Positions 3,319 through 29,774 of a stretch of 64,000 bases of DNA are shown piece by piece. Source of the DNA: Octopus vulgaris (lineage: Eukaryota); NCBI GenBank assembly GCA_951406725.2, contig OX597835.1, positions 32,054,001 through 32,118,000 on the forward strand, read 5' to 3'. A program made the position numbers and the translations under genes. A model generated the notes under the pieces. That model searched no databases, was not told the DNA's origin, and saw nothing but the letters and a program-made list of their open reading frames with translations. How positions within the stretch are numbered: the stretch's first letter is position 1; every line of letters begins with the position of its first letter.

Positions 3319-5276
3319 AATATTCCAAAAGGAGTCCAATGAATTATGTATCAATTAAAAAGTTATGAGGTTTCTACTTCAGCTCTAGGAAGGACCAAAA
3401 CCATCTTCCTATTCTCATTTGAATCAAATTTTGCTTTCTTACGGTGAGGGTTGTGAGCTGACAGACCTTTAGACACAATATTTCTATGACGTCAGGCGTA
3501 GAAGAAATATTTTAACAATACCGATCAATATTCGCAGAGATCAAATTTGAAAATGTTCGACTAGGCAACTTCTGTTTTATATTCTTATGTTTGCTCAATA
3601 ATCATTTAGAAATTATGAAATGGCACGCACAAGTAAGACATCTGTCGAAACACGCACAAAAACAAGTACGAAATTCTACTACAGGACATTTGTGCATTCT
3701 TGAAAGACATTCAAAGCACGTAATCAATATGTAACCACGTATAACCAGAGATGAAAACATTATTCGTTTGCAAAAATATTACCTTTTGCTGTAAATGCTT
3801 AGCAATTAATAAACAATTAATTATTCTTTATAATTTTAGCACAAGCCCATCATTTTAAAAGGAAGGTGGATAAGCATTTGAAGCCGCGCTAGTATTTAAC
3901 TGGTTTAACGATCCCGGAGGACTGGAAGACAAAGTTGACCTCTGGTTAAATTTGAACTCAGAATGTAGACAACTCGAAGGAATTCTACATCTTTTTGTCC
4001 AACGCTCTATCGACTCTGCCAGCTCGCCGCCTTGCCGTGAATACGCTCTTAATAATGGTTAGAGAGCGATAAAATCGATTTCATCGAAGGTTATAAAGAC
4101 AGTGCTCCCGTAAGATGAACTGGGGGTTTTCCAAATTTATTTCGATTTCTTAGGATTTCCTTATCTTTATAAATTGCTTCAAAATTGATTTGTGAAATAA
4201 GTTCTGTAGGATAATATATAACCAATTTATTTTGAGTGGATATTAGTAGACATTTTGTAATGGTATATTGAGCCAAACCATAAACCTACCGGTCTTCCAA
4301 ATAACCAATTTAGGTAAATAGCTTTATTTTTCGTAAACGATATGTTGTTTTTCTGTGTCCGTTTAGAGGTCAACTATCATTTTATACGGCCAGGGCTTAA
4401 TAATCTATATAAGCTTAATCTAACCAACTTGAATACACGTATATATCCTGATTTATTTTATCAACAAGGGCTGAATGAATTTAAAGATTAATCTTGGCGG
4501 GATTTGAGCTTAAAATGTTTGGGTTTGAGAAAAATAAAAGCTGCAAAGTATTTAGTCAAATTCTTCACAAAGACCCAATATTGTCAACGATTATACAAAA
4601 ATACGTTATTGCTATTATGTAGCCACAGGTGGGCCTTAATCAGAGACCTATGATGAGATGTGACTCGCGGTGGGCCTAACTCTCTTTTATCACATACATT
4701 ATTTACTGTGTTCCCCCTTCCATTTTTGAGACTGCAGAATGTGGTTTTGTCGGTTATTATGGTTGTTATTTCTAGCTAGATGTTCGACCGCATTGTGGCT
4801 TCTTTTTCCCCGAGATTAGAAACGAAAAGAGGCAGTATATAGTTTCCACATCGACCGTTGATATTTCACTGTTATCTCTTTTATGGACTACAGATATACC
4901 AGACCAATAGGTCTAATCGTAGGGGTTTTAATCCGGAATGTAAGGGATCCTATTAAAGACATCTAGTCATATAGTCCGGTATGCTACTGGCACTACAAAA
5001 GTCCGGCTGATTTCACCATTTTTTCACAACGAAATAATAACACAGAAAAAAAATTAAACAAAATAAATGATTAAAAAATTAATAAGTTCGGAATTAAGTT
5101 GAAATTTGCAAGAATACAATTCAAATATTTTTATTGAATTAATTATCTCATAATTATAATTATAATATTTCATTTTAAATTTCATTATTTTTATTGATAT
5201 TTTTTATGTTCATTTTTCGTTTCTATTACAATAGGTAAATTAACATATCGGTCACAAGTATTTATTTAGCATTGTA

Positions 5277-5297
5277 TTTTATTTATTATTATTTATT
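5277..5297 (-). promoter_or_regulatory. Candidate polyadenylation signals (clustered AATAAA)
   Basis: Several TTTATT on + (for example 5282-5287 and 5292-5297), about 80-100 nt past the stop codon, in an AT-rich 3'UTR. Confidence 0.5.
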
Positions 5298-5374
5298 TAT
5301 AATTTTCCAAATACAGTCTAGAATCTCTCACATTGCCATCAGATATATGCTCTCTGGGACGTGGGGAAGGGTCT

Positions 5375-5478
5375 TTAATTTTTGTCCCTATACATTTTGT
5401 TTAGAATCAAGAGTAAGTCTTTCAAGGTTTTACTACGTCCTCCACTGGTGTTACAGCGAGCGTTCGACGAGCAGGCAG
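5375..5478 (-). CDS. Oxytocin/vasopressin-family precursor, terminal coding exon ('exon 3'): neurophysin C-terminus plus extension
   Basis: Strong acceptor ttgtttctctttcttttcctAG|CT at 5480-5479. In phase 1 with exon 2 it reads (S)ACSSNARCNTSGGRSKTLKDLLLILNKMYRDKN-TAA. It supplies Cys 13 and 14 of the 14-Cys neurophysin, and AATAAA signals follow. Too short for the ORF track. Confidence 0.9.
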
Positions 5479-5632
5479 CTAGGAAAAGAAAGAGAAACAA
5501 TGAACAAAAAATATAGAGATATGAAGTAAAGTAAAATTTTTAAAAAAAAGTATTTAATGAAACATTATTTTAAAAGTATCAGTTCCTAAGTGTATATCAA
5601 ATTTTGTAAGTATGTGAGTGTATATGTGTCAC

Positions 5633-5673
<41 letters not shown>

Positions 5674-5913
5674 ATATATATATATGTATATATGTATATA
5701 TATGTAAAGTATATTCTTCCCTTGATTAATGAGAACAACGAAAAACTTATTCAATCCGACGAAAGAGAAATATCATTTACTATGCTCGGGGTTTAAATAT
5801 TGCCCAATCATACATGGCACGCAATACGAGCACGCCCGATACTATTGTTATCATGAAATTTACAAGAGCTCAGTTGTGTGAATTAAATTATATATATATA
5901 CATGTGTGTCTAT

Positions 5914-6016
<103 letters not shown>

Positions 6017-6431
6017 TAGATATAGATATATTCATATATGTATATATGTATATGTACGTATGTATGTATGTATATATTTTGGATTAGATGGCCCAGAATA
6101 AGTCCGCTGCTGACGAGGGCCTCAGTATGTTCTTCCTACCAATCACGGTCTGATGCGCAGGCTGTGAATTTAAGCTTGAGTTCATACTAGTTTTGGTGAG
6201 CCTACTCTGCCACACAGGCTCGAGACGTCTTGGTAGAAGGATGCAGTTTTTATACGCATACACGGGAGTAGTTGAGTCGATTACATCTTTGTTGGTACCT
6301 ATTTCATCAACGCTGAAAGGGTGAAAGGCAAAGTCGGCCTCAGCGGAATAAGAGCTAAGAATGCGTAGGAACGGACGAAATACAGCAATGTATTTCGCCC
6401 GGTGTGGTAGCGATTCTACCAGCTCCCGAAA

Positions 6432-6670
6432 AGCCTGCTTTGAGGCCCAACATTCCGAGTTCTTTGACAAGGCTTAAAAAAACTGAAGGACTGCTGCAAT
6501 AAGAGTGTGCATCTGAGAGGGGAATATCTTTATATATAAAAGAGAAGTTGTGTGTCTGTCTCCTACGATTTAGAGCAACGCCGGGCGATACTGCTAGTAT
6601 TAAATAAAATCATAATTAACTGATCCTTTTGTATTTTCTTTTACCCAAAGCCAGGAACTTTGAGCACCCT
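6432..6670. mobile_element. Small DNA-transposon-derived (mariner-like) remnant, interrupted by the mini-Helitron
   Basis: Aligns by eye with 27380-27580 (GAGGCCCAA..TTCCGAG..AACTGAAGGAC..TGCAATAAG..AAAATCATAATTAACTGAT). Confidence 0.55.
6527..6597 (+). mobile_element. 71-bp mini-Helitron-like element
   Basis: 5' TC(TTTATATATAAA) and 3' CTAG preceded by GC-rich GCAACGCCGGGCGATACTGC. Inserted between A and T with no TSD, inside a repeat whose uninterrupted version is at about 27515-27540. Confidence 0.8.
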
Positions 6671-6802
6671 CTCTTATATATTTATGTATGTATGTATGTA
6701 TAGTAGTACTAATTTATTACAACAAACACATACTCTTATACACATCTACACACGTAAAGGAATGATGAACTGTGTAAATAAATAAAACACGAAAATATAA
6801 TA

Positions 6803-7034
6803 TATTTCTTTACTACCCACAAGGGGCTAAACACAGAAGGGACAAACAAGGACAGACAAAGGGATTAAGTCGATTATATCGACCCCAGTGCGTAACTGGT
6901 ACTTAATTTATCGACCCCGAAAGGATGAAAGGTAAAGTCGACCTCGGCGGAATTTGAACTCACAACGTAGCGGCAGACGAAATACGGCTACGCATTTCGC
7001 CCGGCGTGCTAACGCTTCAGCCAGCTCACCGCCT
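6803..7034 (-). mobile_element. SINE family A, young near-complete copy
   Basis: GGCGGTGAGCTGGC head, B-box-like GAGTTCAAATTCC, family core and ...GTGGGTAGTAAAGAAAT tail. Confidence 0.88.
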
Positions 7035-7392
7035 TGCGAAAATATAATAATGAAAGAAATCTATGAACGAAGTAAATCAAAGAGAAAAAAGGAAAGAGAG
7101 ACAAAGAGTGAGAAAGAGAGAGAAAGAAGCAGAAAGAAAAATAAGAGAAATTAATCAAAAATGCTTCCGTAAAAATCCGAAGAGAAGTAATGTATATCTC
7201 TTGACTCCATGATTAAGAGTATGTGAGTGGATGCGTGTGCCCACGTGTGCGAGTGGTGGTGGTGGTGGGGGCGTGTGTATGCAGTTATATCTATCGTTTT
7301 TATTTCTATCTATCCATCTATCTACCTGTCTACTTATCTATCTGTGTGTGTGTGTGTGTGTGAGCTTATTTATCTATGTACGTATATGTGTC

Positions 7393-7719
7393 TGTGTGTC
7401 TGTGTGTCTATGGTGGTTGCATTTGTATGTCTATTTGTATTTCTATGGCAGAAAATTTAATCAGTGGCGTATGCTTTTCTCTTAAACTACAGAAATAATA
7501 TACACGCTTGCTGATAGATAATCTCTGATAATCTCATGCATGTGTACAGCAATGTGAAGAATCAGGAATTGGTAATATGCAAAAGTCTGGGAAACATAAT
7601 TGAATGCTGGAATCGGAATTATAAAAGACGAAGGATATTTATTACGACACAAAACTTACGAATCAATCTGAATCCGAAAACTTCGAAGTTGCAAAAGTAA
7701 CAATATTTTATCAAAATAT
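7393..7719 (+). repeat. Left arm of a 327-bp inverted duplication
   Basis: Reverse complement of 12668-12994; 5 mismatches counted by eye. Confidence 0.95.
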
Positions 7720-8133
7720 CTATTCGATGTCTCCATATATTTCGATATATGGTAGAATTCTAGACATATTTTTTGCGAAGAATTCCTTATAATTTACATT
7801 TATCTTAATTGTCCTTTTGCAATTTGCAGTTTTATTGTTTGCAATTTGGCTGCATATCATAAAGGATAAAGGTAGCTTGCGTGGGCGATAGATTCATGGC
7901 CGGTCAAACTATATTTCTTAGGACGGTGGTAATCGTAAAGAACAATCTTAATGGATGTATATACCTATACATATGCAGTCACACAAAGACACATACACAA
8001 ACATATATATTATTATCTGCGAACACATGTATTTATATGATGATACTAATATGTTAGTCATTACCTGGGACAATTCTGGTTAAAACATATCTAAGTAAAT
8101 ATGGGCATCATCAAATTCCACCATTCACTAAAT

Positions 8134-8503
8134 CTCTTTTACTCTTTTACTTGTTTCAGTCATTTGACTGAGGCCATGCCGGAACACCGCCTTTAGTCGA
8201 GCAAATCGACCCCAGAACTTATTCGTTGTAAGCCTGGTGCTTATTTTATCTATCTCTTTTGCCGAACCGCTAAGTTACGGGGACGTAAACCCACCAGCAT
8301 CGGTTGGGGGGACAAACACAGACATACAAACATATATATACACACACACACACACATATATATAAATATATACGACGGGCTTCTTTCAGTTTCTGTCTAA
8401 CAAATACACTCACAAGGCTTTGGTCGGCCCGAGGCTATAGAAGAAGGCACTTGCCCGAACCCGGAACCATGTGGTCGGTAAGCAAGCTACTTACCACACA
8501 GCC
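8134..8503 (-). mobile_element. SINE family B (tRNA-derived, internal TA/TG microsatellite)
   Basis: Reverse complement of the 23514-23900 consensus, with an internal deletion. Confidence 0.85.
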
Positions 8504-8557
8504 ATTTCAAAAGGTTTTCAAGTAATGAATGTATAAATATGCATGTATGTATGCATG

Positions 8558-8594
<37 letters not shown>

Positions 8595-8955
8595 TAATAG
8601 ACACAATATATGTTTTTGTGGCTACTATTAGTTTCATGCGTGGAGAATAAGCTTGTAAATGCCATGCCGGCATTGCCTGAAGATTGCAATAAGGATCCAG
8701 GCGTGTTAAAAATTACTGTCCTAGATGCTTTCATCGCATGAAACTAATAGTGACCCATAAAATCATCTGTTTATTAAATAATATTTATCTCTCACTGCAT
8801 GGAACACATTTTTTTCTTCACGGGACAGAACACTATATGTGTGTGTATGTATATGCATGTATATATGTATGTATGTAAGTATTATGTAGATAGATGGATG
8901 AATATACGTATATATACATATATATTCATACATATATATATGTACGTATATATAC

Positions 8956-9012
<57 letters not shown>

Positions 9013-9135
9013 CCTGCCCGTTTAGCCAGCGGGGTGGCGTCATTTGAAGGCTAAAACAACGCGAAGCGTATTGTGATCAGCGATGTGTAGGAACATCTGA
9101 TAGCCTGGTCGGTCAGGATGATCACGGTGACATAC

Positions 9136-9231
<96 letters not shown>

Positions 9232-9906
9232 TAATATGTATGTCCTTCTGGACTATTCGTGGGTCAAAGGGGCATGCAATATCAATTATATAGCATTATG
9301 TGGATCACAGTTATCAACATCATCACCACCATCGTCACCATCATCCTCATCATCATCAACATCATAACCATCATCACCATCCTCCTCCTCTTCTTCATCA
9401 TCATCATCATAATTTGCAACTTCTGAGAATTGTCCCATTTTGGCATTAATATGACATGTAGTTCTCTAAGCATTTATGAATACTTGTCTCCATACTTCTC
9501 ATCGCCACACTCCCCTCCAACTACGAGAGTGAATAAGCATATGGCTGCCTTCCACTACATACCTGTGTGTCTAATATGCTATTCTCCAAGTACGATGTGT
9601 TTAAGAGTGTATGTCTTTCAATGGATATTTTATTTTCGTAATATTTCGTAGCTTTATTTTGGTTACGTTTTTTTCAATTCAATTCAAACATTGTTTCCTA
9701 ATCTTTATTGAGGCTTCTAAGTAAATTGCAATTTTTCTTTCTTTCTGAATTTAATCAGTAAATTACAATCACACGCATACACATACACAGGTAAATGCAC
9801 ACACATATACGTACATATGTGTTACTGAATATGTATATATTTTATAGCTTTTCATTTATATAATATAATATATATATATATATATACATAATATCTATAT
9901 ATGGCC

Positions 9907-9962
<56 letters not shown>

Positions 9963-10500
9963 TTTACATATATTTATATACATATATACATACATACATA
10001 CATACATAAATACGTTGGTACATATACACACACACGCACATGCACAGGCACACACATACATATATATTGTATTTCTTTAGAATTATATATTTGATCGTAC
10101 GTATTAGCGATCTTAGCATGTTAAAAAATAAAAATTTATTCCTGGGAGGTGGGGGGTGCTGGACTGAAAGTAATTTAAATCAATAAGTAGCAGAATCAGG
10201 ATAAACAAAAAATAAAATGTAATTGTAATTAAGAGAAACCTTCTTTATTTTCTGCTGGCAAAAATAAATGTTTAAGCTGTTGATTAAGAAATAACAAAAA
10301 ATAACGACATTAACAGAACTGATAGCGATATTAACATCAAGAATGTAGCAACTGCAAGGGTAGTACCAACAACGTTTCGAACAGTAACGTTAGCAACACC
10401 AGTTACACGAGGGACAAAAGCATCTTAAGAGCATCATAATGGGTTTTCAACAGCAACAATATTATATGTGTACATATGCATGTATGTACATTATACATGT

Positions 10501-10550
<50 letters not shown>

Positions 10551-10559
10551 ATGTGTATG

Positions 10560-10610
<51 letters not shown>

Positions 10611-10620
10611 GTTTATACAT

Positions 10621-10741
<121 letters not shown>

Positions 10742-10777
10742 CAAGAAGAGAGGAAGGGTTTAGGTCACTAAGCGTAT

Positions 10778-11030
10778 ATATATATATAATATAAAATCCG
10801 TTCTGTCTGTCTGTCTGTCTGTGTATGTGTCTTCTAGGTTCTCGGGCATCCTCCATCCGATTGCGCTCAAATTTGATATGTAGATGCCGACGGTATCTGG
10901 GCGTGAATAAGTCTTGAAAAACTACCAAAAATCGATTCCAGGAGAGGATGCAATCAATAAAACCGTTTTTGTCCTGCTTTTTTTCCGTCAACCTGTTCAT
11001 AACTGCACCTTTTTTTTGCAGTTTTTATAC
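10778..11030 (+). mobile_element. 5' portion of a Helitron-like element
   Basis: ATATAATATAAAA..(CTGT)n..CCGATTGCGCTCAAATTTG layout, typical of invertebrate non-autonomous Helitron 5' ends. The 3' end was not located. Confidence 0.5.
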
Positions 11031-11879
11031 TGCTTAAAGGCACGTTTCTTTCCTGCCAAGCTTACTGTTTAAGGTATGCTTGTGTTCTCCCAGTCAACAG
11101 CCTTATCATTACTGGTACTTTAAACTCTTCGGTTGCATATTTATGTGAATAAAATCGTTTTTCTTTGGAATAGAAAAAAGTCTATCTTTATTTCTTCTTT
11201 TGCTGGTGTCTCAAATTTAGGTTAAATCAGTGTTTCTCTTTTAATGCACTGGCGCGGAGAAAATATTAAAAACTACAGATGAACTTGCTTTAATCCTTTG
11301 CCTGTCTAAAGTACGTTCATAAGCTAGTCCTAAACGCCTATTATTGTTTTCAGACTTAGTTCGCCCTCATTTCATATGTTCTGAGAAATACAAAACTTTC
11401 TTTTCAGAAGATCCAAGTTACTCTGGCGGTTGACAAGCAAATCGGATATGTGCATCATATATGATAAACGGACACTAGGGAGTATGTGACAAATAATTCA
11501 GAGGACATGCAAAGAGTATGTTTTATCAATTGCTGCTATAATACCTGCTGAGCCGAATGTCATGTCAGCGAGATTATGCTGTGGAGTTCAACAGAGAAAC
11601 AACAGGAAAATCTCACCGGCAGCCACAAGTGAATGAACAGAATGCACAAGGGTGCAATTTGAAAAATTGTAGGAGTTAAACCGATCAAAATTTGTTTGGA
11701 AAATCTAACAAGACAAGCAATCTCTACTTGATAAATCAAACTTCTTACCATTGTCTCTTTTTTAAGTCGATCTTTAAGACATAAAAATTCTGTGTGTGTA
11801 TATACATGTGTACACACACACACATACATACATACATACATACACACTTAAACACACATATATTACTAACTGGTACTCA

Positions 11880-12165
11880 GTCGGTTGCGACAACAAGGTG
11901 GAGCCGATCAATGGAACAACCTGCTCGTGAAATTAATGTGCAAGTGGCTGAGTACTCCACAGACACGACTACCCTCAACATAGTTCTCAGGGAGATTGAG
12001 CGTGACACAGACTGTGCCAAAGCTGGCCCTTTTGAAATACAAGTACAACTGATTTTTGCCAGCTGAAGGAACTGAAACAATGTAAAATAAAGCGTCACTG
12101 GTAATCGATCTAACGAACTAACGATCGAGTACCCAGTACCTATAACCACTAAGCCACGTGCCTTC
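11880..12165 (-). mobile_element. C-related SINE, tail type 1
   Basis: CTGCTCGTGAAATTAA..CAAGTGGCTGAG..CTCCACAGACACG domain. Related pieces at about 27920-28088, 36403-36710 and 54573-55010. Confidence 0.72.
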
Positions 12166-12236
12166 ACATACATACATATATGTATGTATGTATATATGTG
12201 TCTGTGTATATGTATACATATATGTATACATCTGTG

Positions 12237-12666
12237 GGATCTTTTCGGTTTGAACGGCAGTTTTTCTAACGGTGTCATATGAAATTGTCACCCATAATTA
12301 AGACACTAGTATCGATCTATTGCATTTCAATCTAATTTAGGGTTAGGGTTGGAGTTAGGGTTAGGTTTGAGGGTGGAGGAAGGGTATCTTTTTTTCCTCA
12401 GAAATGTAAATAAACCCAATCTGTTACTTAAACGAGGGACATATTCATACGGCACAGAATGTTTTCACCTCAATAGACGTAATTGATTGGTTGAAATTGC
12501 AGAAATTGAAGAAACAAAACCACAAATATCCTACAAACTATAGAATTTTCTCAATAAAGCGAAGAAGAAAAAGATGTTTTATAAACACATTCTACCAGTA
12601 TACGAAGTTTAAAATTTTTTAGTTACCTAGAAATTATGTTAAAAACTGCCGTTCAAACCGAAAAGA
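12237..12666 (-). mobile_element. Same MITE family (copy 2, reverse orientation, right TIR clipped)
   Basis: Left TIR intact. Right TIR lacks the terminal TCC and there is no matching TSD. Internal TTAGGG-like repeats at about 12337-12372. Confidence 0.9.
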
Positions 12667-12667
12667 A

Positions 12668-12994
12668 ATATTTTGATAAAATATTGGCACTTTTGCAACT
12701 TCGAAGTTTGCGGATTGAGATTGATTCGTAAGTTTTGTGTCGTAATAAATATCCTTCGTCTTTTATAATTCCGATTCCAGCATTCAATTATGTTTCCCAG
12801 ACTTTTGCATATTACCAATTCCTGATTCTTCACATTGCTGTACACGTGCATGAGATTATCAGAGATTATCTATCAGCAAGCGTGTATATTATTTCTGTAG
12901 TTTAAGAGAAAAGCATACGCCACTGATTAAATTTTCTGCCATAGAAATACAAATAGACATACAAATGCAACCACCATAGACACACAGACACACA
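12668..12994 (-). repeat. Right arm of a 327-bp inverted duplication
   Basis: Reverse complement of 7393-7719. Confidence 0.95.
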
Positions 12995-14030
12995 TATGTG
13001 TGAGTGTGTGTGTGTGTACCTGCTGCCTATTTGGGTAGGCAGAGCCGTAGGAAATTGTTCTTAGTCATAAAAGCAACAGAGGATCACTTCAATTTCTTGT
13101 TGTCTGCTACGTTATCGCTTCTGTTATTTACTCGTACATCTCAAAATTTCTGGTTAGGAATTATAATTATTTTTTGTCTAAATACTTCGTGTTTAATATT
13201 ATCAAAAATTCAGTTCACAAGTAATTTCGTGTCGAATCAAATATACTTCGAAACATCGTGTCTTCCCCAACACCTCTCTTCATGTTATTTTTTATAATGA
13301 CAATAATTTTCAATATGGATTCTTCATGACGAAGAGAGGCTTAATATTCTCATGTTAATTCCCGTTGAAAGTTTGATTTTTATACATTTTATTAATCACT
13401 GATTGCAGTTTATAATTCAATCAATTCATCTTATTGATCATTATAAACTTTTTTTTTTCAAAAGTATCAATCGGTAATAGTAAATTGAATAAAGGTTTTC
13501 GCATTTAATCGTTTAATTCTTTTTTATTTACATCATTACCGATAAAGAGTTAGTATCATAGCATCTAAAAACCGATAGTGTACTATCAAACGGGCCGATA
13601 GATAAGTGGTTCAAATCCTAGACGGCACAAAATACGTGTAACTCAAGAATGAAGGCCACTTCTGTCAACGTAAGTGCCCCATGATGATAAATTTACAACC
13701 GCACAAATTCCCAACTTTGCTAGAAATGAGGACTATCCCTTAAGTTGCTCGTATTAGTTCGATTTGCATTTTAATTATAAAAACCAGTAGGAAGATATTG
13801 ATTCGCACGTGTAGAGTGTCGAGGTAACGAAATTACGTTTTGTGAACAATTAAGGCCTAATAGAATAAAGAAAAACTTATCAAGTAGAGATTTAATGACA
13901 CAGACTCACACCTCATTCAAACTTGCTTCATTTCAGCGCATTGTACAAATAAATTTTGCTGTGTCTGGGGATGGTCATACTGCCTTAATGCCTTAATATG
14001 TAACACATTTATCGGTTCAGTTTCCGCTCA

Positions 14031-14087
<57 letters not shown>

Positions 14088-14630
14088 GAGTGAGAGAGCA
14101 ATTCATGCCATCAAAATGACACTGGGGTAAAATATACGAAGCCCAATGACTACCCATCATGACTACCCGTCTGATAAGGGTACACCAGGTACATGCATCA
14201 CAACCATATGTACGCGACATGGTGATCTCATATCAAGATAAACAGCACATGACCTTGCAGGTGGGGCCCAGTTAGAATTTTCTTCAGGCTGAGTAGCCCA
14301 TCCCGCTCAAAGGGTCCTTGAATAAGGGTTGTTTAAGGATGTTGAAAGAACCACCCATGTTTCCAGAGGTGAATTATTCAAACCCCAAAGAATCCCTCTC
14401 AACACATGGCTATGATGCTCCCCCACTACTTCTGCTCGTGATCAGAGATGCACATATCGTCAGCCACTAAGGGACATGCTCAACTGGTTATGGTCAAACA
14501 ACTGACAAGCAAATCTGTGGTATATTGAGCAGAATATTTGCTGTAGCCCATCTTTTATACCAAGACAAAACAATGTACATGATAACACCTCCAATCAGTT
14601 AAGATCAGAAGCCATGAGAGCCACTGCCTG

Positions 14631-14632
<2 letters not shown>
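14088..14632. mobile_element. About 545-bp interspersed repeat inserted in an (ATT)n tract; possible non-LTR retroelement end
   Basis: Complex, more GC-rich block bounded by (TTA)n on both sides. Class is inferred only. Confidence 0.45.
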
Positions 14633-14682
<50 letters not shown>

Positions 14683-14683
14683 C

Positions 14684-14726
<43 letters not shown>

Positions 14727-14727
<1 letters not shown>

Positions 14728-15107
14728 AGACGGCGAACTGGCACAATCTTTAGTACGCTTAGCGGTATTTCGTCCGTCGCCACGTTCTGAGTTCAAATTC
14801 CGCCGAGGTCGACTTTGCCTTTCATCCTTTCGGGATCGATTAAATAAGTACCAGTTACGCACTGGGATCGATGTAATCGACCTAATCCGTTTGTCTGTCC
14901 TTGTTTGTCCTCTCTGTGTTTAGCCACTTGTGGGTAGTAAAGAAATAGGTATTTCGTCCGTCGCTACGTTCTGAGTTCAAATTCCGCCGAGGTCGACTTT
15001 GCCTGTCATCCCTTTCGGGGTCAATAAAATAAGAACCAGTTTAACACTGGATGGTCGATGTAATCGACTCACCCCTCCCCCAAAATGGTTGCCCTTATGG
15101 CAAAATC
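14727..15107 (+). mobile_element. SINE family A, tandem dimer
   Basis: Head followed by two successive core units. Confidence 0.85.
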
Positions 15108-15499
15108 TGAGAACATCATTTTTTTTTTCATTGTTTTTGCAACCTTATCTTTGGATGGTGACAGATACGAGAATGAAGTACAAATTAATCCTATTAATAT
15201 TCTTTCTAATGTGGATAGAAGATTAGACACTTTAATCCAATACATCAACTGTAGTGTTCGACCAGTACTTATTTTATCGAACTTAAAAAAGATGAAAGGC
15301 AAGGTCAACCTCGGAGGGATTTGAACTCAGAACTCAAATTTTGTATTACATTTGGTAATAATGCTACCAGCGCACCGAATTTATATCAATAAAAGGTGAT
15401 TTCCTTCGTTGTTCCTGTTATACGCACTGTTGTTTATATCTTTGTTATCTCATGCATGTGTATGTGCGTGACTGTATGTATGTATACACATGCAGAAAG

Positions 15500-15574
<75 letters not shown>

Positions 15575-15583
15575 TGTGTGTGT

Positions 15584-15722
15584 TAGCGGTTGAGCAAAAG
15601 AGTCCGATAAAATAAGCACCAGTTTTACAATGAATAAGTCCTGGGATCGATTTGCTCGACTAAAGGCGGTGCTCCAGCATGGCCACAGTCAAATGACTGA
15701 AACAAGTAAAATAGTAAAAGAG
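15584..15722 (+). mobile_element. SINE family B, 3' fragment
   Basis: TTAGCGGTT..GCTCGACTAAAGGCGGTGCTCCAGCATGGCC..GAAACAAGTAAAA tail. Confidence 0.75.
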
Positions 15723-15786
15723 TGTGTTTCTGTGTTTCTGTGTTTCTGTGTGTGTGTGTGTGTGTGTGTGCGTGTGTGTGTGTGTA

Positions 15787-15836
<50 letters not shown>

Positions 15837-16484
15837 AGAATGACAGATGGATAGATTGCTAGATAAACCGACCGATAAACAGACAGGTAGATTAATAGAT
15901 ATACACACACAGACTCACACTCACGTGCACACAAGCATACGCACTTATTCTAGTTTCTTAATGAAAGCTGATTAGAACATTCAGTAATGAAGATTGGATT
16001 TCGTTGAACTCATTTCTCGTCTCTATTTGCGACTCGAGTTTCAGTCACTTCGAACTTCAGACAAAATGACTTCTCGATTGAACCTCGTGTTGACGGGAAT
16101 ATTTCGTCACACACATACACACACACACACAGATATAAACACACATAAACACAGAGACACATTTATTGTGCACGTGTGTCTTGTTCGTACGTGTGTGCGA
16201 GCCCGAATGTGGGCGTGTTGTGCTAACACAAAGTAAATATCAAGAACAAAAAATATAAAAAATGTGAGCCAGAATATTAGAGGAATTGAGCAACGTTGGA
16301 ATGTGTGTTAAACTCTTTTATTTATCTATACTTGATTCAATTCAATCCAGGTCAATGCCTTTTACCACGTATCTAGTTCTTTGAATTCTACAATGAAAGT
16401 AAACAACCGCACCGTTCCCATGAGATATAGTTGCTGTTCTATATGCGTATTCTCAAAGGAACTGGATTATTTATTAACTTAGGT

Positions 16485-16885
16485 AAGGCACAAGGCGGAC
16501 AAAGTGCTAAGCAGCGTTTCGTCCGTTTTTTTCCTTCTGAGTTTAAATTCTACCAAGGTCGTCTTTGCTTTTCATCCATCTGAGGTTGATAAAATAAGTA
16601 CCAGTTGTGCAGTGGGATTGATCTAATCGATTATCACCCATCCCAAAATTGCGGGCCTTCTGCCAAAATTTTAAACCAATATCAAGTATGACAGCGAGCT
16701 GGCACAATGGTTACCGCGCCGGATAATATGCTTTGTGGCATTTTGTCCGTCTTTACCTTCTGATTCGAAATTCCACCGAGGTCTACCTTGCCTTTGACCC
16801 CTTAGGGGTCTATAAAATAATTTGAGCACTGAAGTCAATGTAATCGGCTTGCCTGCTACCCCTTGTGCCAAAATTTGAAACCAAT
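16485..16885 (+). mobile_element. SINE family A, two degenerate tandem copies
   Basis: Two diverged head-plus-core units, each ending in TGCCAAAATTT..AAACCAATAT. Confidence 0.65.
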
Positions 16886-17532
16886 ATTAATACTAACTAG
16901 TAGTCATTTTATGGTTGCTATTTACTTACGTTAATATAATCCCGGGGAGCATGGAGTCTAGGGTTACAGTCCAATATAAGTGCTATGTGATTTTATAAAT
17001 TACATGATACTTCCTTTCATTTCCTCATGTAACAGTCCGCTTCTTTAGTTTTGTCTCTATAACTTTCATGAATTACCTAACAATGTTGTTTTAATGGTGG
17101 AGTTGTGACGTTAAAAATTATCACGTCTATTGCAATTAAAGGTGTTTTCTTTTTTAATGCTACTTAACTTGTTGCAATCCATATTAAACGAAGCTTATTT
17201 ATACCATAATGAGGCTGAAAATATGTATTGCTCTCTTGTGGGTTTATTGGGTGTCATTTTGATAACCGATGGAGTAGAGGACACAATGTCTTCTGGCATT
17301 TTGTATCTTCCCTCTAATTGAAGCTGCATGGACTAGTGGTTAGGGTTCCGCACTCGCGTTTCGCAGATCATGGTTTTGGATCCAGGATCGGGCGGTGCGT
17401 GGTGTCCATCAGCAAAACACTTCGCTTCAGATTACTTCGGCTCACTCAACTGAAAATGAATTCCAGCAAAGTTTGGGGATTGACCCAACAACGGACCGGC
17501 GCTCGCTTTAGGAGCGAGTTTCTTTTTTCTTT

Positions 17533-17912
17533 TCTTTTACTTGTTTCAGTCATTTGACTACGGCCATGCTGGAGCACCGCCTTTAATCGAGCAACTCGAC
17601 CCCGGGACTTATTCTTTTGTAAGCCCAGTACTTATTCTATCGGTCTCTTTTGCAGAACCGCTAGATAACGGGGACATAAACACACCAGCATCGGTTGTCA
17701 AGCAATGCTAGGAGGACAAACACAGACACAAACACACACACGCACATATATATATATACATATATACGACGGGCTTCTTTCAGTTTCCGTCTACCAAATC
17801 CACTCACAAGGCTTTGGTCGGCCCGAGGCTATAGTAGAAGACACTTGCCCAAGGTGCCACGCAGTGGGACTGAACCCGGAACCATGTGGTTGGTAAACAA
17901 GCTACCTACCAC
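17533..17912 (-). mobile_element. SINE family B
   Basis: Near full-length reverse copy. Confidence 0.88.
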
Positions 17913-18377
17913 TAGGCCTTATTTGGGTTCCACTATCGAAAACGAATTATCACAGATCTCTCGATGTTTCCGAATTCATGTGGTCTTCAGAGTTATTTGG
18001 CGTTGTGAAATGGAAGTGGTGACATTCTAGAGGAAGCAAAATAGTTTCAATCTGGAATTGAAAATGATGAGTAGAACAACGCAGAATAACGTAAACCGAC
18101 CAGCGCCGGTTGTCGAGCGATGTGGGAGCCAAACACAAACGCACAAAGATTTATACACACATACCTACATTATATAATTATATACATATATTTATGAATG
18201 CATACATATCTACACATATGTATGTGCCAAATGTATATTATACAGTGGGCACAACAATATTCTCAGACTGTTGTAAAATGGTATAATATCCGCACACACA
18301 CAGTGGAGAAGGGCAGGCCCCAAATAATACATATAGAACATATAATACATATATATCTGTGTGGATATATTTGTAAA

Positions 18378-18409
<32 letters not shown>

Positions 18410-18699
18410 AACATAATAATTTTGCTATAATGAAGAAAGTTGCTTCTTAATTACTATAGGTATGGAGCATTTAATAAAAGAAAGCAATTATTAAATTCAA
18501 CACCACCTGGAAAGTTCTTATAAATTCCAATTTTAATAGGTCTTTTTTATAAAATGTGATTTTTAAAGTCCTTTTACGATTTCATGTCAGGATTCACGAT
18601 TCAATGACCAGGCTGATTTTTATGCACTGCCATATAGTTAACTTCCGCAGATAAAACAAATAAACCGAAGAAAGAATGATTATATGATTGTATACTTAC

Positions 18700-18901
18700 A
18701 TTCATCGCAGCAAACACCGTCGGCAACACATCGTCCTTGTCCGTCAGTTCCACACGGCACCCCTTTCACAGAACATGCTGTCGTGCTCTCGTTTTCCTCA
18801 TTGCATTCCTTTGCGAGTGTGCCTATGATGCAACCGTCTTTGTGGCAGCATATGTTGGATCCAACACACTGGCCTTCACCATTTGGTCCGCAAGACATAC
18901 A
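18700..18901 (-). CDS. Oxytocin/vasopressin-family precursor (cephalotocin/octopressin type), internal neurophysin exon ('exon 2')
   Basis: Translates to CMSCGPNGEGQCVGSNICCHKDGCIIGTLAKECNEENESTTACSVKGVPCGTDGQGRCVADGVCCDE plus 1 nt, with 12 Cys in neurophysin spacing. Acceptor is a polypyrimidine tract plus ttactAG|TGT (AG at 18903-18902). Donor is GAAT|GTAAGT at 18700/18699. Length 202 nt, phase 0 to phase 1, as in vertebrate OXT/AVP exon 2. No symbol given because the nonapeptide exon is not visible. Confidence 0.96.
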
Positions 18902-19158
18902 CTAGTAATTAAAAGAGAAAAAAAAAACAGACATTTTTTATAAAAATATATACAGACTCTTTTATATTACACATTTATGTGTACACGTCCAATCATAAAT
19001 ATGATCATGTTTGAGTTGCGTGTTCACTATAAACAAGTAGGAATAACAATTCAAAGGAAATAATCGTACTCATACAGAAGAGATCCACTGTTCCACATTT
19101 ACGTTTGTATGTCGTAAGCATGCACATACGCAAACACACACATATGCATATTTACAAG

Positions 19159-19298
<140 letters not shown>

Positions 19299-19311
19299 GT
19301 TGTTGAATTCA

Positions 19312-19480
19312 CAGAAAAACAAAAGACGAAGACAGATGTATAAACAACAAGAAGGTGTATTAGTTCGACACTCGGGAAAGTGAGAAAGTGTTTTACGTTT
19401 CGAGCCTACGCTCTTCAGCGGAAAGGAACAAGAGGAAATAAACGTAGAGGGAATTAAGAAAAAACTTGCGGTCAATCATG
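19312..19480 (-). mobile_element. Penelope-like short fragment in (TA)n
   Basis: AAAAGACGAAGACAG..GTATTAG..TTTTACGTTTCGAGCCTACGCTCTTC. Same family at 20532-20710, 24447-24519, 38323-38473, 52878-52988 and 33365-33460. Confidence 0.6.
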
Positions 19481-19501
19481 GCGATATGGATATATATATA
19501 A

Positions 19502-19553
<52 letters not shown>

Positions 19554-19574
19554 ATATATATATATATATATATG

Positions 19575-19671
<97 letters not shown>

Positions 19672-20137
19672 ATATATGCATACATATATACATACATACA
19701 TACAACTATAGATAGCTGGGGAGAAAAGGAGAAAGTGTTACAGTTAGGATTGTGTACGAGTGAATAAACAAGGAAAACATTTATTAACTCGAAGTCTTTT
19801 ATGTATTTTAATAACATTCGAAATAGCAGAATCTTTTTAATATATATGCAACTAAATCAGTCTCAATATTTAACTAACAGTACACACTACTAAGTACAAA
19901 GTTTGTGAGGTTATGTATTGTGTGGTGAGGTTATGTATTTCCTGCTGAAATAGAAGACGTATTTTCTAAATTAAAACTACTGTTCCGATTCCGTACCATT
20001 TGTGAGAATTCAACAATTTTTGGAAGGTTATATTTTGCTTTTCTCCTTTGGTTTTTTCCTCTATATTTTCGTTGTTATATTAAAGCGTACCAAAAATTGA
20101 ATTGATTTAGTTTTCTTGGTACTTGATATAATCTGCA

Positions 20138-20193
<56 letters not shown>

Positions 20194-20194
20194 T

Positions 20195-20227
<33 letters not shown>

Positions 20228-20475
20228 AAACTACTACTACTCTATAAGATTCCTTGATTGCCTCTAGTTGCAATTTCGTCTGTATCAGTGAGAATATATA
20301 AGCCATATATTCAAATACTTTGTATACAAATTGTATTAGAATCTGTCTATTTATCTTTCTATATATCTGTTTCTTTGTTTCTAACTGTCTGTCTGTTTCT
20401 TTCTCTCTCGATCTCTCTCACCTTCTCTCTCGCTCTCTCACTCTGTAAATATATATATATATACATATATATATG

Positions 20476-20531
<56 letters not shown>

Positions 20532-20534
<3 letters not shown>

Positions 20535-20710
20535 AGAGTTTAGGAAAAAACCCAAAGACGAAAACAGGTGGTGAACAAAATAAACAGATGTATTAGTATA
20601 ACGCTCAGGAATAGAAAAAGTCTTTTACGTTTCGAGCCTACGCTCTTCTACAGAACGGGACACAGAAAACAAGGAGAAAAACAAGGAGAGAAAAAATGTG
20701 TGTAGTGCCT
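20532..20710 (-). mobile_element. Penelope-like short fragment in (TA)n
   Basis: Near-identical to 38323-38473 and 52878-52988. Confidence 0.6.
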
Positions 20711-21352
20711 AATATATATATATATGTGTGTGTGTGTGTGAATATATATATAGATATACGTGTGTTATTGTGAGGGCGAATGTGTATGTATAACAAAAGT
20801 AAGAAAGGGTGATAATCACAAGAATGGGCAATTGTCCAAAAGTGAGGATCCATTTAGGATACAACAGTCCCATTATACTCATCGTATGTTGATGTTTCCA
20901 TCTCGATGGGTGTCATCAGTGTAGCATTTTATCCGACTTATCTTCAGCAGACTAGACCCTAATATATATATATATATATACATCGATATATACAGACAGG
21001 AATACAGACAAGTACACATGCACACACACACACACAGACACACATACAAGCACATACACAAGCACACACGTTTATACAAACTCATACAAACTACGCATAC
21101 ATGCACACACACATACATGCCAAAACCCTTAAAGAAATTTAACACACGTTCTAGATAACTCAACATCACACCGATAGAATGGGAGGGAAGAAAATATATA
21201 GGCAAATGTACTGAACACCCCAACTACACGCCCATTTTCCTGACTAATCTAGTGTATATTCCTTTTTCTTTCTACTACCCAATATAATAAATATCACACC
21301 CACGAAAATATTTGAATAGCTAAGAATATAATATAGAACTGAACCGCCCTAA

Positions 21353-21718
21353 AACAAAAGCACTCAGAGAGTGCAAACCTCCGTCAAGGTAACATTAACG
21401 TCTTCTCAATGATAAGCCGATAATTTTTTAAATAAGAATATCTGAAATAAACTCGACTGCTCTCACAAACGAGAATACTAAAACTGAACCCGAACGCCCT
21501 CAAAGATTAAGTAAAACAAAAAAACAAGGAAAAGTAATCCATATGCTTGTCTGGTACCGGATCGATCTCAAAATCCAATCCGTTCGTGCCAGTCACGAAG
21601 CCAAACATCCCTGAAAGTTTCATCCGCATCCATCAAGTGGTTCTTGAGATATCTTGTCCACGGATAAACAAACACGACTGGAAAACAATACCCCTGCCTT
21701 CGTTAAGTAGGAGGTAAT
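21353..21718. mobile_element. Helentron-associated (HINE/DINE-1-like) non-autonomous element
   Basis: Starts with the short hairpin GCACTCAGAGAGTGC followed by ACCTCCG..AAGG. Ends with the subterminal inverted motif ...GGAGGTAAT after (CAAA)n-like repeats. Confidence 0.6.
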
Positions 21719-22421
21719 AAAGCACGTTACAAGAGCTACACTTGAAAGTAAGCTTGTCAAGTATCCATCTTCTACGATACTCAAAGAAACCAGTCAAGAT
21801 TGTAACATGAATTTCGACCTATTTAGATAAAAATCCTGACATCGGCAAGCAACTGGTGTGAAGCCGATGTCAACTACATAAGTTTGCAAACAGATCAGAT
21901 TTCAGATACAAAACAACGTCTCCTCGCTTCTCCCAAAACCCTAACCAATAAACAACTGAATTCAGTTCACTTCGAGCCAAGCTGGTTGAAAGAACCTCTA
22001 CGAAGCTGCACATAAAATTATACCCGGTTCCATATACAACTACACATACTCTATGCAGTGGAAACACGTATGGGTCGTCGTTATGAATGTTGTGCTCACG
22101 ACCTTATGATTGTGAGTTCGATTCCAGGACCAGGAGGTACATTAAACACTTTTTTTAAAGTTTTTTTTTTTTCTGAGAGCAAACAAACCATATGTTGAAT
22201 GACGTTGTAAAATAAAAGGAAATAAATTTTGAGGATGTTCTAGTCCATATTCTCTATCGTTATAATTATTGCTAATATACAATCCAAATGTTACCATCTA
22301 GTGAGGCGAACACGGAATTACGCATCGGGGGAATTTACAGACGTTGAATATTAATCGTTGCGAATAACCGTCACCGGGAACTTAGCTAAGAGCTACCATG
22401 GTATCTGCCCGGATAATCCCC

Positions 22422-22692
22422 ATGACCGACCAGGCTAGCATATGTTGCTACACATCGCTGGTCACAATGCGCTTCGCATTGTTTTAACCTTCAAATGACG
22501 CCACTCCGCTGGCTAAGAGAGCAGGCCAACAGAAGAAAGTGTGAGAGAAAGTTTTGGCGAAAGTGTCCGGAGCCTCGTGGAGCTTTTAGGTGTTTTCGCT
22601 CAATAAACAGTCACAACGACCGGTCTGGGAATCGAAGCCGCGATCCTACGACCGCGAGTCCGCTGTCTTAACCAATGGGCCATTGCATCTCT
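22422..22692 (-). mobile_element. SINE family C head with tail type 2
   Basis: Same head; the tail also occurs alone at about 9010-9128 (+). Confidence 0.78.
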
Positions 22693-22727
22693 ACGCCCGG
22701 ATAATATATCCCTTTAAACACACACAC

Positions 22728-22812
<85 letters not shown>

Positions 22813-23478
22813 TATGTGTGCGTGTATTAAATAAATAGATATGTGATTGCGTTTCATTACATAGTAGAAAAATACACTCTGTATATTTGCTAAGCAAGTG
22901 AATAACAGTTTAAATCGTTCGGAGAAAAGGGAAGAATGAATTTTAGATTGAAGGAAATAATGACTTAAATGCAATTTCTTCAGTGGAAATTTCCATTTAT
23001 TCTTCGAGTTCATATACGACTTTCAAAGTATTGGATATTCTTGGCACTTTGTCGATTTGCATCAAGCGTGATTTCGTATTATCATGTATTATCGTCTTCA
23101 ATTCTTCATATCTAATGTTATCAAATGGAATGTAGTCAAATTGGATTTCTTCAACTCTAACAGTAATTTTGTCCTTGACTTCACACTTCCAAAATATTTT
23201 AATAATGAAAGATTTTGAATGTAAGAGACTAAAATTCAATCCAGAAAAACAGAACACCAAATAACTTCGTCTTTATTTACTTTCGCTATCGCTTTATTAA
23301 TTTTCCAAGAAATCTATCCAAGAATATGTAGAGTCAATAGGGCATGACATTATTTCCTGAAGTGTTCTCGGACTTCCCATTATATTATATACTATCTATT
23401 GATCCACTGCGATCATGGCCAAACACCTCACTCTTCAATAGACTTGATCATCGAAATTATAGTTACATATAATTTTAC

Positions 23479-23513
<35 letters not shown>

Positions 23514-23515
<2 letters not shown>

Positions 23516-23900
23516 CGCAGGAGTGACTGTGTGGTAAGTAGCTTGCTAACCAACCACATGGTTCCGGGTTCATTCCCACTGCGTGGCACCTTGGGCAAGT
23601 GTCTTCTACTATAGCTTCGGGTCGACCAAAGCCTTGTGAGTGGATTTGGTAGACGGAAACTGGAAGAAGCCCGTCGTATATATGTATATGTTTGTGTGTC
23701 TGTGTTTGTCCCCCCACCATTGCTTGACAACCGAAGGTGGTGTGTTTACGTCCCGTAACTTAGCGATTCAGCAAAAGAGACTGGTAGAATAAGTACTAGG
23801 CTTACAAAGAATAAGTCCTGGGGTCGATTTACTCAACTAGAAGGCGGTGCTCCAGTATGGCCGCAGTCAAATGGCTGAAACAAGTAAAAGAGTAAAAGAG
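23514..23900 (+). mobile_element. SINE family B, full length
   Basis: GGCGCAGGAGTG(G/A)CTGTGTGG A-box-like, GGTTC B-box-like, CCTTGGGCAAGTGTCTT core and (GTAAAAGA)n tail. Confidence 0.9.
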
Positions 23901-24311
23901 TATATATATATATACAAAAATGCATGCATACATACATGCATAAAGGTAATACCTTTATAGTATGCATTCTAAAGCTCCTCTCCCCGTATCGGCTACCAAA
24001 TGTTATCATACAATAGAACTTATCCTGATACTGGATAGACTTGTGGAAATCCGCGAATATCCACAGAGTATAAATAAGCAAGTTTTAAGAGAAGGTAGCT
24101 TAAACAGGCTTCATTAGAAATCACTATAATTGTTTCAGTGCATCATACTCAGCTGTTAATTACGGAATGTAATTAATAGCTGATAATGAGGTAGTGGTAC
24201 AATTGTAGTGGCTTGCAATAAGTCCCGTTCAAAAGATTTTCTGGCATTAACATTTATAGATACACACACACACACATACATACATATGTGTATATATATT
24301 TATATATGCAT

Positions 24312-24342
<31 letters not shown>

Positions 24343-24407
24343 CATAGATACAGATTTATATATTGCATATGTCTATATATACATACATACATACATACAT
24401 ACATACA

Positions 24408-24443
<36 letters not shown>

Positions 24444-26152: not shown

Positions 26153-26192
<40 letters not shown>

Positions 26193-27379: not shown

Positions 27380-27580
27380 TGTCCGGTGGGATACTGAAAA
27401 GTTACTGACTACAAGAGGATAGCGAAAGGCCTGGTTAGAGGCCCAATATTCCGAGATCTTTTACAGGACTTAGAAGAACTAAAGGACCTCTGCAATAAGT
27501 ATGTGAGTCGGAGAAGGGAATATGTTGAATAAAATCATAATTAACTGATTCTCCTGTATTTACTTTTACCCAAAAACCTT
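27380..27580. mobile_element. Uninterrupted copy of the same small remnant
   Basis: Homologous to 6432-6670 but without the 71-bp insert. Confidence 0.55.
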
Positions 27581-27593
27581 TCATTACCGTGTC

Positions 27594-27628
<35 letters not shown>

Positions 27629-29280: not shown

Positions 29281-29349
<69 letters not shown>

Positions 29350-29697: not shown

Positions 29698-29774
<77 letters not shown>

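What the first reader, a model, noticed from the sequence alone, without database searches (positions are those of the whole stretch)
5375..5478. Hidden terminal exon may be an alternative C-terminus: one neurophysin exon shared by cephalotocin and octopressin?
Seen: the exon encodes SACSSNARCNTSGGRSKTLKDLLLILNKMYRDKN. As I recall, the published O. vulgaris cephalotocin and octopressin precursors share an essentially identical neurophysin core matching exon 2 here, and at least one ends differently (SSCFTTDRC...-type tail). I found no such tail in this window. Inference, two options: (a) a single exon 2 is used with alternative first exons (two hormones) and alternative last exons, making one modular two-hormone locus; or (b) two genes have exon 2 homogenised by gene conversion, as known for mammalian OXT/AVP, in which case RACE-assembled cDNAs could be chimeric.
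Basis: partly seen in the sequence, partly recalled or inferred. Interest (0 to 1): 0.8.

Follow-up and report, generated by a model that had tools for sequence, protein, structure and literature searches.

The report
One octopus gene, two oxytocin-type hormones
The octopus hormones octopressin and cephalotocin, described in reviews as products of two separate intron-free genes, most likely come from one spliced gene that joins either of two hormone-coding first exons to a single shared carrier-protein exon and then to either of two last exons, one of which is the exon flagged here.

Summary
Confirmed. 5478-5375 (minus strand) is a real last exon (3B), spliced to a 202-nt neurophysin exon 2 at 18901-18700; one transcript-type contig joins octopressin exon 1, exon 2 and 3B. 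Both 2003 cDNA proteins end in a different tail (3A) that is absent from the window. In two DNA-type runs exon 2 lies on one unbroken contig with both introns and no second contig over the exon, so a converted or intron-free second copy is not seen. In an RNA-type run exon 2 is its own contig with two upstream partners that fit the octopressin and cephalotocin first exons. The deposited 'cephalotocin-del' protein is an exact skip of exon 2 (33 of 33 positions). The exon is not hidden from databases: RefSeq already lists four isoforms in O. bimaculoides. But the review I read still says two single-exon genes, and 10 paper searches found no correction. Not seen directly: positions of the first exons and 3A.

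The parts
5375..5478 (-). Coding part of the proximal last exon (3B): phase-1 start, last two neurophysin cysteines, leucine-rich tail, stop TAA at 5377-5375
   Evidence: Translation; match to CAI9739012.1 and RefSeq isoforms; the 30-letter loose end at 18700 of a contig of run X13 equals window 5449-5478 in 30 of 30 letters
5479..5520 (-). Splice acceptor AG (5480-5479) and pyrimidine tract of exon 3B
   Evidence: Seen in sequence
5130..5374 (-). Probable 3' untranslated region with six AATAAA hexamers beginning at 5297, 5287, 5283, 5266, 5195 and 5135; true poly(A) site not determined
   Evidence: weak, because the region is very A+T-rich and no chance control was run
5479..18699 (-). Intron 2 as used for exon 3B, 13,221 nt, GT...AG
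   Evidence: junction seen in run X13
18700..18901 (-). Shared exon 2, 202 nt, neurophysin core with 12 cysteines; phase 0 start, phase 1 end
   Evidence: Pfam PF00184 E 1.1e-17; 100% protein identity to both octopressin and cephalotocin precursors; one unbroken contig in runs X1 and X4
18902..64000 (-). Intron 1, at least 45,099 nt; neither first exon lies in the window
   Evidence: tblastn of both first-exon peptides gives no credible match (best E 0.029, low-complexity); distance

Best explanation
One locus makes both hormones. Two alternative first exons, each with its own signal peptide, nonapeptide and Gly-Lys-Arg cleavage site (octopressin or cephalotocin), splice onto one shared neurophysin exon 2. 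Exon 2 then splices to one of two paralogous last exons: the proximal 3B (this finding, 13.2 kb downstream) or a distal 3A beyond the window. Both last exons supply the final two cysteines in the same register, so every combination gives a full 14-cysteine neurophysin with a different ~25-residue tail. SHOWN here: exon 2 and 3B boundaries; the exon 2-3B splice; one exon 2 copy in two DNA-type runs; two upstream partners of exon 2; the exact exon 2 skip in cephalotocin-del; 3A and 3B are homologous and 3B is the type shared with other molluscs. INFERRED: that hormone choice is made by two promoters (which would give the different tissue patterns reported for the two mRNAs); that last-exon choice is a contest between the 3B acceptor/poly(A) signals and the distal 3A acceptor; that 3A lies downstream of window position 1; that the locus arose by internal duplication of exon 1 and exon 3; and that the 2003 single-exon result came from amplifying spliced template, since the true introns are too long for ordinary PCR.
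For: (1), runs X1 and X4 (guessed DNA, two organisms): in each a single contig crosses both exon edges into both introns, and depth in the seven bins from 18730 to 18904 equals that one contig (38.9; 45.9) at 85% likeness. (2), run X9 (guessed RNA): exon 2 is a 205-nt contig of depth 1310 that stops at both exon edges; two contigs (727 and 472 nt) overlap its first 30 letters; the 11 letters by which their mixed loose end differs from the octopressin first exon all fit the cephalotocin first exon (11 of 11, compared by hand). (3), run X13: one 483-nt contig holds the octopressin first-exon end (30 of 30 letters allowed by P0012), exon 2 and exon 3B. (4): cephalotocin-del BAC82437.1 shares exactly the 52 residues before exon 2 with cephalotocin, and its tail is tail A read one base out of frame (33 of 33 positions compatible; 5000 shuffles mean 5.5, maximum 14; 0 conflicts in 102 positions). 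(5) Exon 3A starts CC and 3B starts CT, which accounts for the one extra letter of the X9 contig if the path forks there. (6): RefSeq isoforms X1-X4 of O. bimaculoides are the four combinations, all on a contig of 37,717,999 nt; O. vulgaris and O. sinensis each have a tail A / tail B pair on one contig length.
Against: The review PMC7181382 (passages) reports two genes of one coding exon each, citing Kanda et al. 2003, which I could not read. I did not see the first exons or exon 3A in genomic DNA. The run types are guesses; only about 80 in 100 of run X1 was read; 55 loose-end rows and 203 contig rows were not shown; contigs drop rare variants. The 3' fork in X9 is inferred, since no downstream contig was laid. 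Graph contigs and RefSeq models do not prove that a given first exon and last exon sit on one molecule; the cephalotocin + 3B pair rests on one predicted model (XP_014771381.1). Run X1 shows a short extra match at about 18655-18729 that I did not identify (absent in X4).
Confidence: 0.9

Rival explanations
1. Two three-exon genes whose second exons are kept identical by gene conversion, as proposed for mammalian oxytocin and vasopressin genes; mixed pairs would be RACE or assembly chimeras.
For: Near-identical second exons in separate genes are documented in cattle, human, coelacanth and elephant shark (PMC2656470 passages). Tails pair by lineage: cephalotocin type with tail A in Argonauta, octopressin type with a tail-B type in Sepia.
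Against: One unbroken contig spans exon 2 and both introns in 2 of 2 DNA-type runs, with no other contig over the exon interior. Conversion would have to cover the whole 721-nt stretch laid, including about 250 nt of intron on each side, for the graph not to fork inside it. Annotations of three Octopus assemblies treat the forms as isoforms or consecutive accessions on one contig length.
Confidence: 0.04
2. The published picture is right in part: intron-free copies (retrocopies) of both precursors exist besides this spliced locus and are the expressed genes.
For: The single-exon claim as relayed by PMC7181382; extra GenBank entries BAC84977.1 and BAC84978.1 with the same proteins, which may be the genomic clones (my inference).
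Against: An intron-free copy would fork the DNA graph at both exon edges, as seen in run X9; it does not in X1 or X4. Cephalotocin-del has lost exactly exon 2, which needs splice sites at both edges.
Confidence: 0.03
3. Exon 2 is single, but one first exon (or exon 3A) lies at another locus and is joined by trans-splicing; or 3B is a minor, non-functional terminal exon.
For: No first exon within 45 kb upstream; the O. sinensis models lack any first exon.
Against: RefSeq places all four combinations on one contig length in O. bimaculoides. 3B is the conserved type: 15 of the 16 other tails I compared are closer to tail B than to tail A, and it was the only tail on the X13 contig.
Confidence: 0.03

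Closest known systems
O. vulgaris octopressin (BAC82435.1) and cephalotocin (BAC82436.1) precursors, reviewed in PMC7181382 as two single-exon genes
   Same: Exon 2 is identical in protein to both.
   Different: The window shows introns on both sides of exon 2, and a last exon that neither 2003 protein carries; the data point to one locus, not two.
RefSeq and assembly gene models: O. bimaculoides XP_014771381.1, XP_014771389.1, XP_014771397.1, XP_014771402.1 (isoforms X1-X4); O. sinensis XP_029649633.1/634.1; O. vulgaris CAI9739011.1/012.1
   Same: They already contain this exon and, in O. bimaculoides, all four first-exon / last-exon combinations.
   Different: They are automatic models named conopressin or terepressin; they do not name the two hormones, and I found no paper drawing the conclusion.
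Three-exon vasopressin/oxytocin-neurophysin genes of other animals, including the vertebrate gene pair
   Same: Signal peptide, nonapeptide, Gly-Lys-Arg, neurophysin; three coding exons per transcript (PMC7181382, PMC2656470, PMC8557429 passages). A 202-nt second exon with these phases is also the vertebrate pattern (recalled, no call).
   Different: Vertebrates use two whole genes; here the two hormones share one physical neurophysin exon.
Calcitonin/CGRP gene; clustered protocadherin and UGT1A loci (all recalled, no call)
   Same: Works like them: one locus gives two hormones by exon choice (calcitonin/CGRP), and variable first exons splice to a constant exon (protocadherin, UGT1A).
   Different: Not related in sequence. 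In calcitonin/CGRP the hormone sits in the alternative last exons; here it sits in alternative first exons, with a second, separate choice at the 3' end.
Sepia officinalis sepiatocin precursor (AHH31546.1)
   Same: Octopressin-type first part and a tail closer to 3B than to 3A.
   Different: Whether its partner pro-sepiatocin shares exon 2 could not be tested: no such precursor was among 201 proteins held.

Membership tests
Vasopressin/oxytocin-neurophysin precursor family | Neurophysin domain (Pfam PF00184) | tested here: met
   Exon 2: E 1.1e-17, 65 bits, cut-off 27.2; full precursors cover profile 1-79 of 79
Vasopressin/oxytocin-neurophysin precursor family | 14 neurophysin cysteines | tested here: met
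   12 in exon 2 plus 2 at tail positions 3 and 9 in both tails; the number 14 as the family norm is recalled
Vasopressin/oxytocin-neurophysin precursor family | Signal peptide, Cys1-Cys6 nonapeptide and Gly-Lys-Arg ahead of the neurophysin | tested here: inconclusive
   Not in the window; present in the database precursors; only the last 30 letters of the first exons were seen joined to exon 2 in contigs
Vasopressin/oxytocin-neurophysin precursor family | Three coding exons per transcript | tested here: met
   Acceptor and donor around exon 2, acceptor of exon 3B, and spliced contigs at both edges
Single-exon octopressin / cephalotocin genes as published | No intron in the coding sequence | tested here: not met
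   Introns of 13,221 nt and at least 45,099 nt; no intron-free copy seen in 2 of 2 DNA-type runs
Duplicated gene pair with converted exon 2 | Two genomic copies of exon 2 with different flanks | tested here: not met
   One unbroken contig and flat depth over the exon in runs X1 and X4; contigs, not raw reads
Single locus with alternative first and last exons | One constant exon with two upstream and two downstream splice partners | tested here: met
   Upstream: two contigs in X9; downstream: 3B in X13, 3A in the 2003 proteins and cephalotocin-del
Single locus with alternative first and last exons | All five exons in order on one strand of one chromosome | not testable with these tools
   No whole genome held; only the shared contig lengths of annotated isoforms are known
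Single locus with alternative first and last exons | Separate promoters, and full-length molecules for each pair | not testable with these tools
   All 24 runs listed are kept as contigs; no raw or long reads
Copeptin-like tail | N-glycosylation sequon followed by a leucine-rich core after the neurophysin | tested here: inconclusive
   Tail B has a sequon at position 10 and a leucine run, tail A has no sequon; a vasopressin-type hit P0076 has both features. None of the 16 other invertebrate tails printed shows a sequon at that place (read by eye), there is no dibasic site ahead of tail B, and cleavage or glycosylation was not tested

The most novel reading that the evidence does not exclude
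The octopus 'two genes, as in vertebrates' case is really an exon-level duplication: a modular locus of more than 64 kb, shared by coleoid cephalopods, in which promoter choice is coupled to last-exon choice (cephalotocin with 3A, octopressin with 3B, a nested order 1CT-1OP-2-3B-3A), so that each hormone travels with its own carrier tail; and exon 2 skipping yields cephalotocin without any carrier. The lineage pairing of tails (Argonauta, Sepia) and my unchecked recollection that the two cuttlefish precursors have the same neurophysin fit this; the 2003 octopressin protein with tail A speaks against strict coupling.
Probability: 0.3. Interest if true: 0.8.

Novelty: new variant of a known kind. 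Interest (0 to 1): 0.68.

Why it matters
Octopus is cited as the first invertebrate with two oxytocin/vasopressin genes, a parallel to vertebrates, and as an odd case of intron loss (PMC7181382, PMC9144402 passages). If one spliced locus makes both hormones, both statements need correcting, and the parallel was reached by duplicating exons rather than genes. There is a practical result too: probes or primers in exon 2 or 3 cannot tell the hormones apart. Both 'cephalotocin' qPCR primers of PMC5736919 lie inside exon 2, which offers a direct explanation for the conflict that paper says it cannot reconcile (cephalotocin signal in the gastric ganglion, where earlier work found only octopressin mRNA). 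Gene-level counts, single-cell data and knock-outs at this locus would likewise merge the two hormones.

Tried and rejected
No whole genome is held, so exon order outside the window could not be read. tblastn of first-exon and tail-A peptides on the window gave only low-complexity or chance matches. A position-wise scan for exon 3A letters found no copy: best 50 of 102, at exon 3B itself, next best 49, mean 28.5; best 20-letter stretch 17 of 20. Pro-sepiatocin was not retrieved: the exon 2 search with the sepiatocin-type protein gave 3 of 3 candidates, none of that type, and its nonapeptide is in 0 of 201 proteins held; this is no evidence of absence. Rfam: 0 matches in the window. The Pfam match of the tail to DUF7466 (E 0.012, 16 bits, cut-off 27) is below threshold and rejected. 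Kanda 2003, Henry 2013 and Kanda 2005 are not held. The paper search was too loose (197,843 papers) and gave nothing. Earlier findings of the scan: none by place or sequence, and 8 unrelated ones by words. No structure was predicted, since the fold is not in question.

Full report
Observation. The stretch 5478-5375 on the minus strand is preceded by a pyrimidine tract and AG (5480-5479) and is open to TAA at 5377-5375. A scan of cysteine-rich frames found the neurophysin exon 13.2 kb upstream: 18901-18700, 202 nt, AG before and GT after, starting in phase 0 and ending in phase 1. It matches Pfam PF00184 at E 1.1e-17. The phases of the two exons fit. Neither first exon nor the other tail lies in the 64 kb, so intron 1 is at least 45,099 nt. 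The tail has Ala at the position where O. bimaculoides has Val, as in the O. vulgaris and O. sinensis records, so the window is probably from that species pair (inference).

What the databases hold. Exon 2 is identical in protein to both cephalotocin (BAC82436.1) and octopressin (BAC82435.1); 9 of 9 Octopus records with an exon 2 show 0 differences over 66 residues. Both 2003 proteins end in tail A. The exon flagged here (tail B) is in CAI9739012.1 (octopressin first part), XP_029649633.1, and O. bimaculoides isoforms X1 and X3. The four O. bimaculoides isoforms (153, 152, 146, 145 residues) are exactly the four combinations of two first parts and two tails, all on a contig of 37,717,999 nt. 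So the exon is known to annotation pipelines. These are predicted models and could be combinatorial, so I tested the structure separately.

One copy or two. Of 24 runs listed I laid 4 on 18430-19150 at 85% likeness. In X1 and X4 (guessed DNA, two organisms; X1 may be the window's own source and about 80 in 100 of it was read; X4 was read whole) one contig crosses both exon edges into both introns. Depth in the seven bins from 18730 to 18904 equals that contig alone (38.9 and 45.9). A second copy with other flanks, or an intron-free copy, should fork the graph at the exon edges and break the contig (inference from how such contigs are built; the fork is seen in X9). Limits: contigs, not raw reads; 55 loose-end rows and 203 piece rows were not shown; a short extra match at about 18655-18729 in X1 alone is unexplained.

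Splice partners. In X13, which has no cover in the unique parts of either intron, one 483-nt contig holds exon 2 with no differences; its loose end at 18700 equals window 5449-5478 in 30 of 30 letters, and its loose end at 18903 fits the back-translation of the octopressin first exon in 30 of 30. In X9 exon 2 is a contig of its own (205 nt, depth 1310), and two contigs (727 nt, depth 304; 472 nt, depth 115) overlap its first 30 letters; the three depths account for the bin value 1659.1. Their mixed loose end differs from the X13 end at 11 places, and all 11 letters are allowed by the cephalotocin first exon (by hand; rough chance about 1 in 100,000). At the other end the X9 contig runs one letter past 18700 and stops.

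A deposited protein shows the exon edges. 'Cephalotocin-del' (BAC82437.1, 86 residues) shares 52 residues with cephalotocin and departs at residue 53, the first residue of exon 2. Its remaining residues are tail A read one base out of frame: 33 of 33 positions compatible, against a mean of 5.5 and a maximum of 14 in 5000 shuffles; the two frames fix 97 of 102 letters with 0 conflicts. This is a skip of exactly the 202-nt exon. It puts the cephalotocin first exon and exon 3A on one pre-mRNA with splice sites at both edges of exon 2 (inference), which an intron-free gene cannot give.

Relation of the two last exons. Tails A and B are homologous: alignment z 7.2, 0 of 2000 shuffles as high; cysteines at positions 3 and 9 in both; and the best ungapped match of the 3A letters in the whole window is at 5478 itself (50 of 102, mean 28.5, sd 4.7; next best 49). 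I compared 16 other tails, chosen by me among the top hits for having a full tail and including three near-duplicate pairs: 15 score higher against tail B, and only the Argonauta model (cephalotocin type) scores higher against tail A. So the flagged exon is the ancestral type, and the published tail is the derived one. Tail B has a glycosylation sequon followed by a leucine run, like the tail of a vasopressin-type hit (P0076); this is a lead only.

How it most likely works. Two promoters give two first exons, each with signal peptide, nonapeptide and cleavage site; both splice over a long intron to exon 2; exon 2 splices to 3B (near, with AATAAA hexamers from about 78 nt after the stop) or to 3A (further than 18.7 kb from exon 2, unless missing from this assembly). 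Promoter choice would explain the reported patterns, octopressin widespread and cephalotocin largely in the ventral median vasomotor lobe (PMC7181382 passages). Pairs with support: octopressin + 3B (X13 contig, CAI9739012.1), octopressin + 3A (BAC82435.1, CAI9739011.1), cephalotocin + 3A (BAC82436.1, and the skip form), cephalotocin + 3B (one predicted model only). Promoters, poly(A) sites and phasing on single molecules are not shown.

Comparison with print. PMC7181382 (passages) states two genes, each of a single coding exon, and a cephalopod gene duplication paralleling vertebrates; PMC9144402 (passages) repeats the two genes. PMC2656470 (passages) covers near-identical second exons in vertebrate gene pairs. 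PMC5736919 (passages) gives qPCR primers for cephalotocin, both of which match exon 2 exactly (18882-18901 and 18759-18778), and says it cannot reconcile its cephalotocin signal in the gastric ganglion with earlier work that found only octopressin mRNA there. Passages of PMC5153645, PMC9303212, PMC8851675, PMC4585917, PMC3883647 and PMC8557429 do not mention a shared exon. Ten searches listed no title or abstract start that reports one locus; most listed papers were seen as listings only. Kanda 2003, Kanda 2005 and Henry 2013 are not held and I saw nothing of them; subscription papers and supplements that I did not see may already note this. I recall that Henry 2013 describes the same neurophysin in both cuttlefish precursors; this is unchecked, and pro-sepiatocin was not among 201 proteins held. 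The likeness to calcitonin/CGRP, protocadherin and UGT1A loci is recalled and is one of working principle, not of family.

Verdict. The exon is real and is one of two alternative last exons of a single octopressin/cephalotocin locus (confidence 0.9). Family membership is ordinary; the architecture is a new variant that automatic annotation already contains but that contradicts the account in the reviews I could read and explains a published discrepancy. Interest 0.68.

Noticed in passing
window 18759-18901: Both primers used as 'cephalotocin' qPCR primers in PMC5736919 lie inside shared exon 2 (143 nt by my coordinates, 142 in the paper), so they would also detect octopressin transcripts.
   Followed up: yes
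protein P0030 (BAC82437.1): Cephalotocin-del keeps signal peptide, nonapeptide and cleavage site but has no neurophysin (0 Pfam families); its stop lies in the last exon. Whether it yields hormone is unknown. The same skip into exon 3B would read an 18-residue tail; not seen in data.
   Followed up: partly
window 25673-26011 (+): Remnant of a mariner-type transposase (Pfam HTH_48, E 1.9e-16) inside intron 1.
   Followed up: partly
window 18655-18729 and 18905-18954: Short extra matches raise depth next to the exon edges (the first only in run X1, the second in X1 and X4); probably chance matches to A+T-rich intron sequence at 85% likeness, not identified.
   Followed up: no
window 18515-18687: A 173-nt contig of depth 2.3 in run X9 covers intron 2 just past the donor; unspliced RNA or DNA carry-over.
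   Followed up: no
proteins P0008, P0014: The O. sinensis RefSeq models start at the methionine in exon 2 and lack both first exons, so that annotation encodes neither hormone.
   Followed up: no
window about 1270-1520, 2620-2790, 3880-4030, 6850-7040: Copies of a dispersed repeat family with a shared core recur through both introns (seen); probably SINE-type elements, not tested.
   Followed up: no
proteins P0040, P0186: Lingula anatina conopressin/neurophysin is annotated with isoforms of 155 and 162 residues; where they differ was not examined.
   Followed up: no
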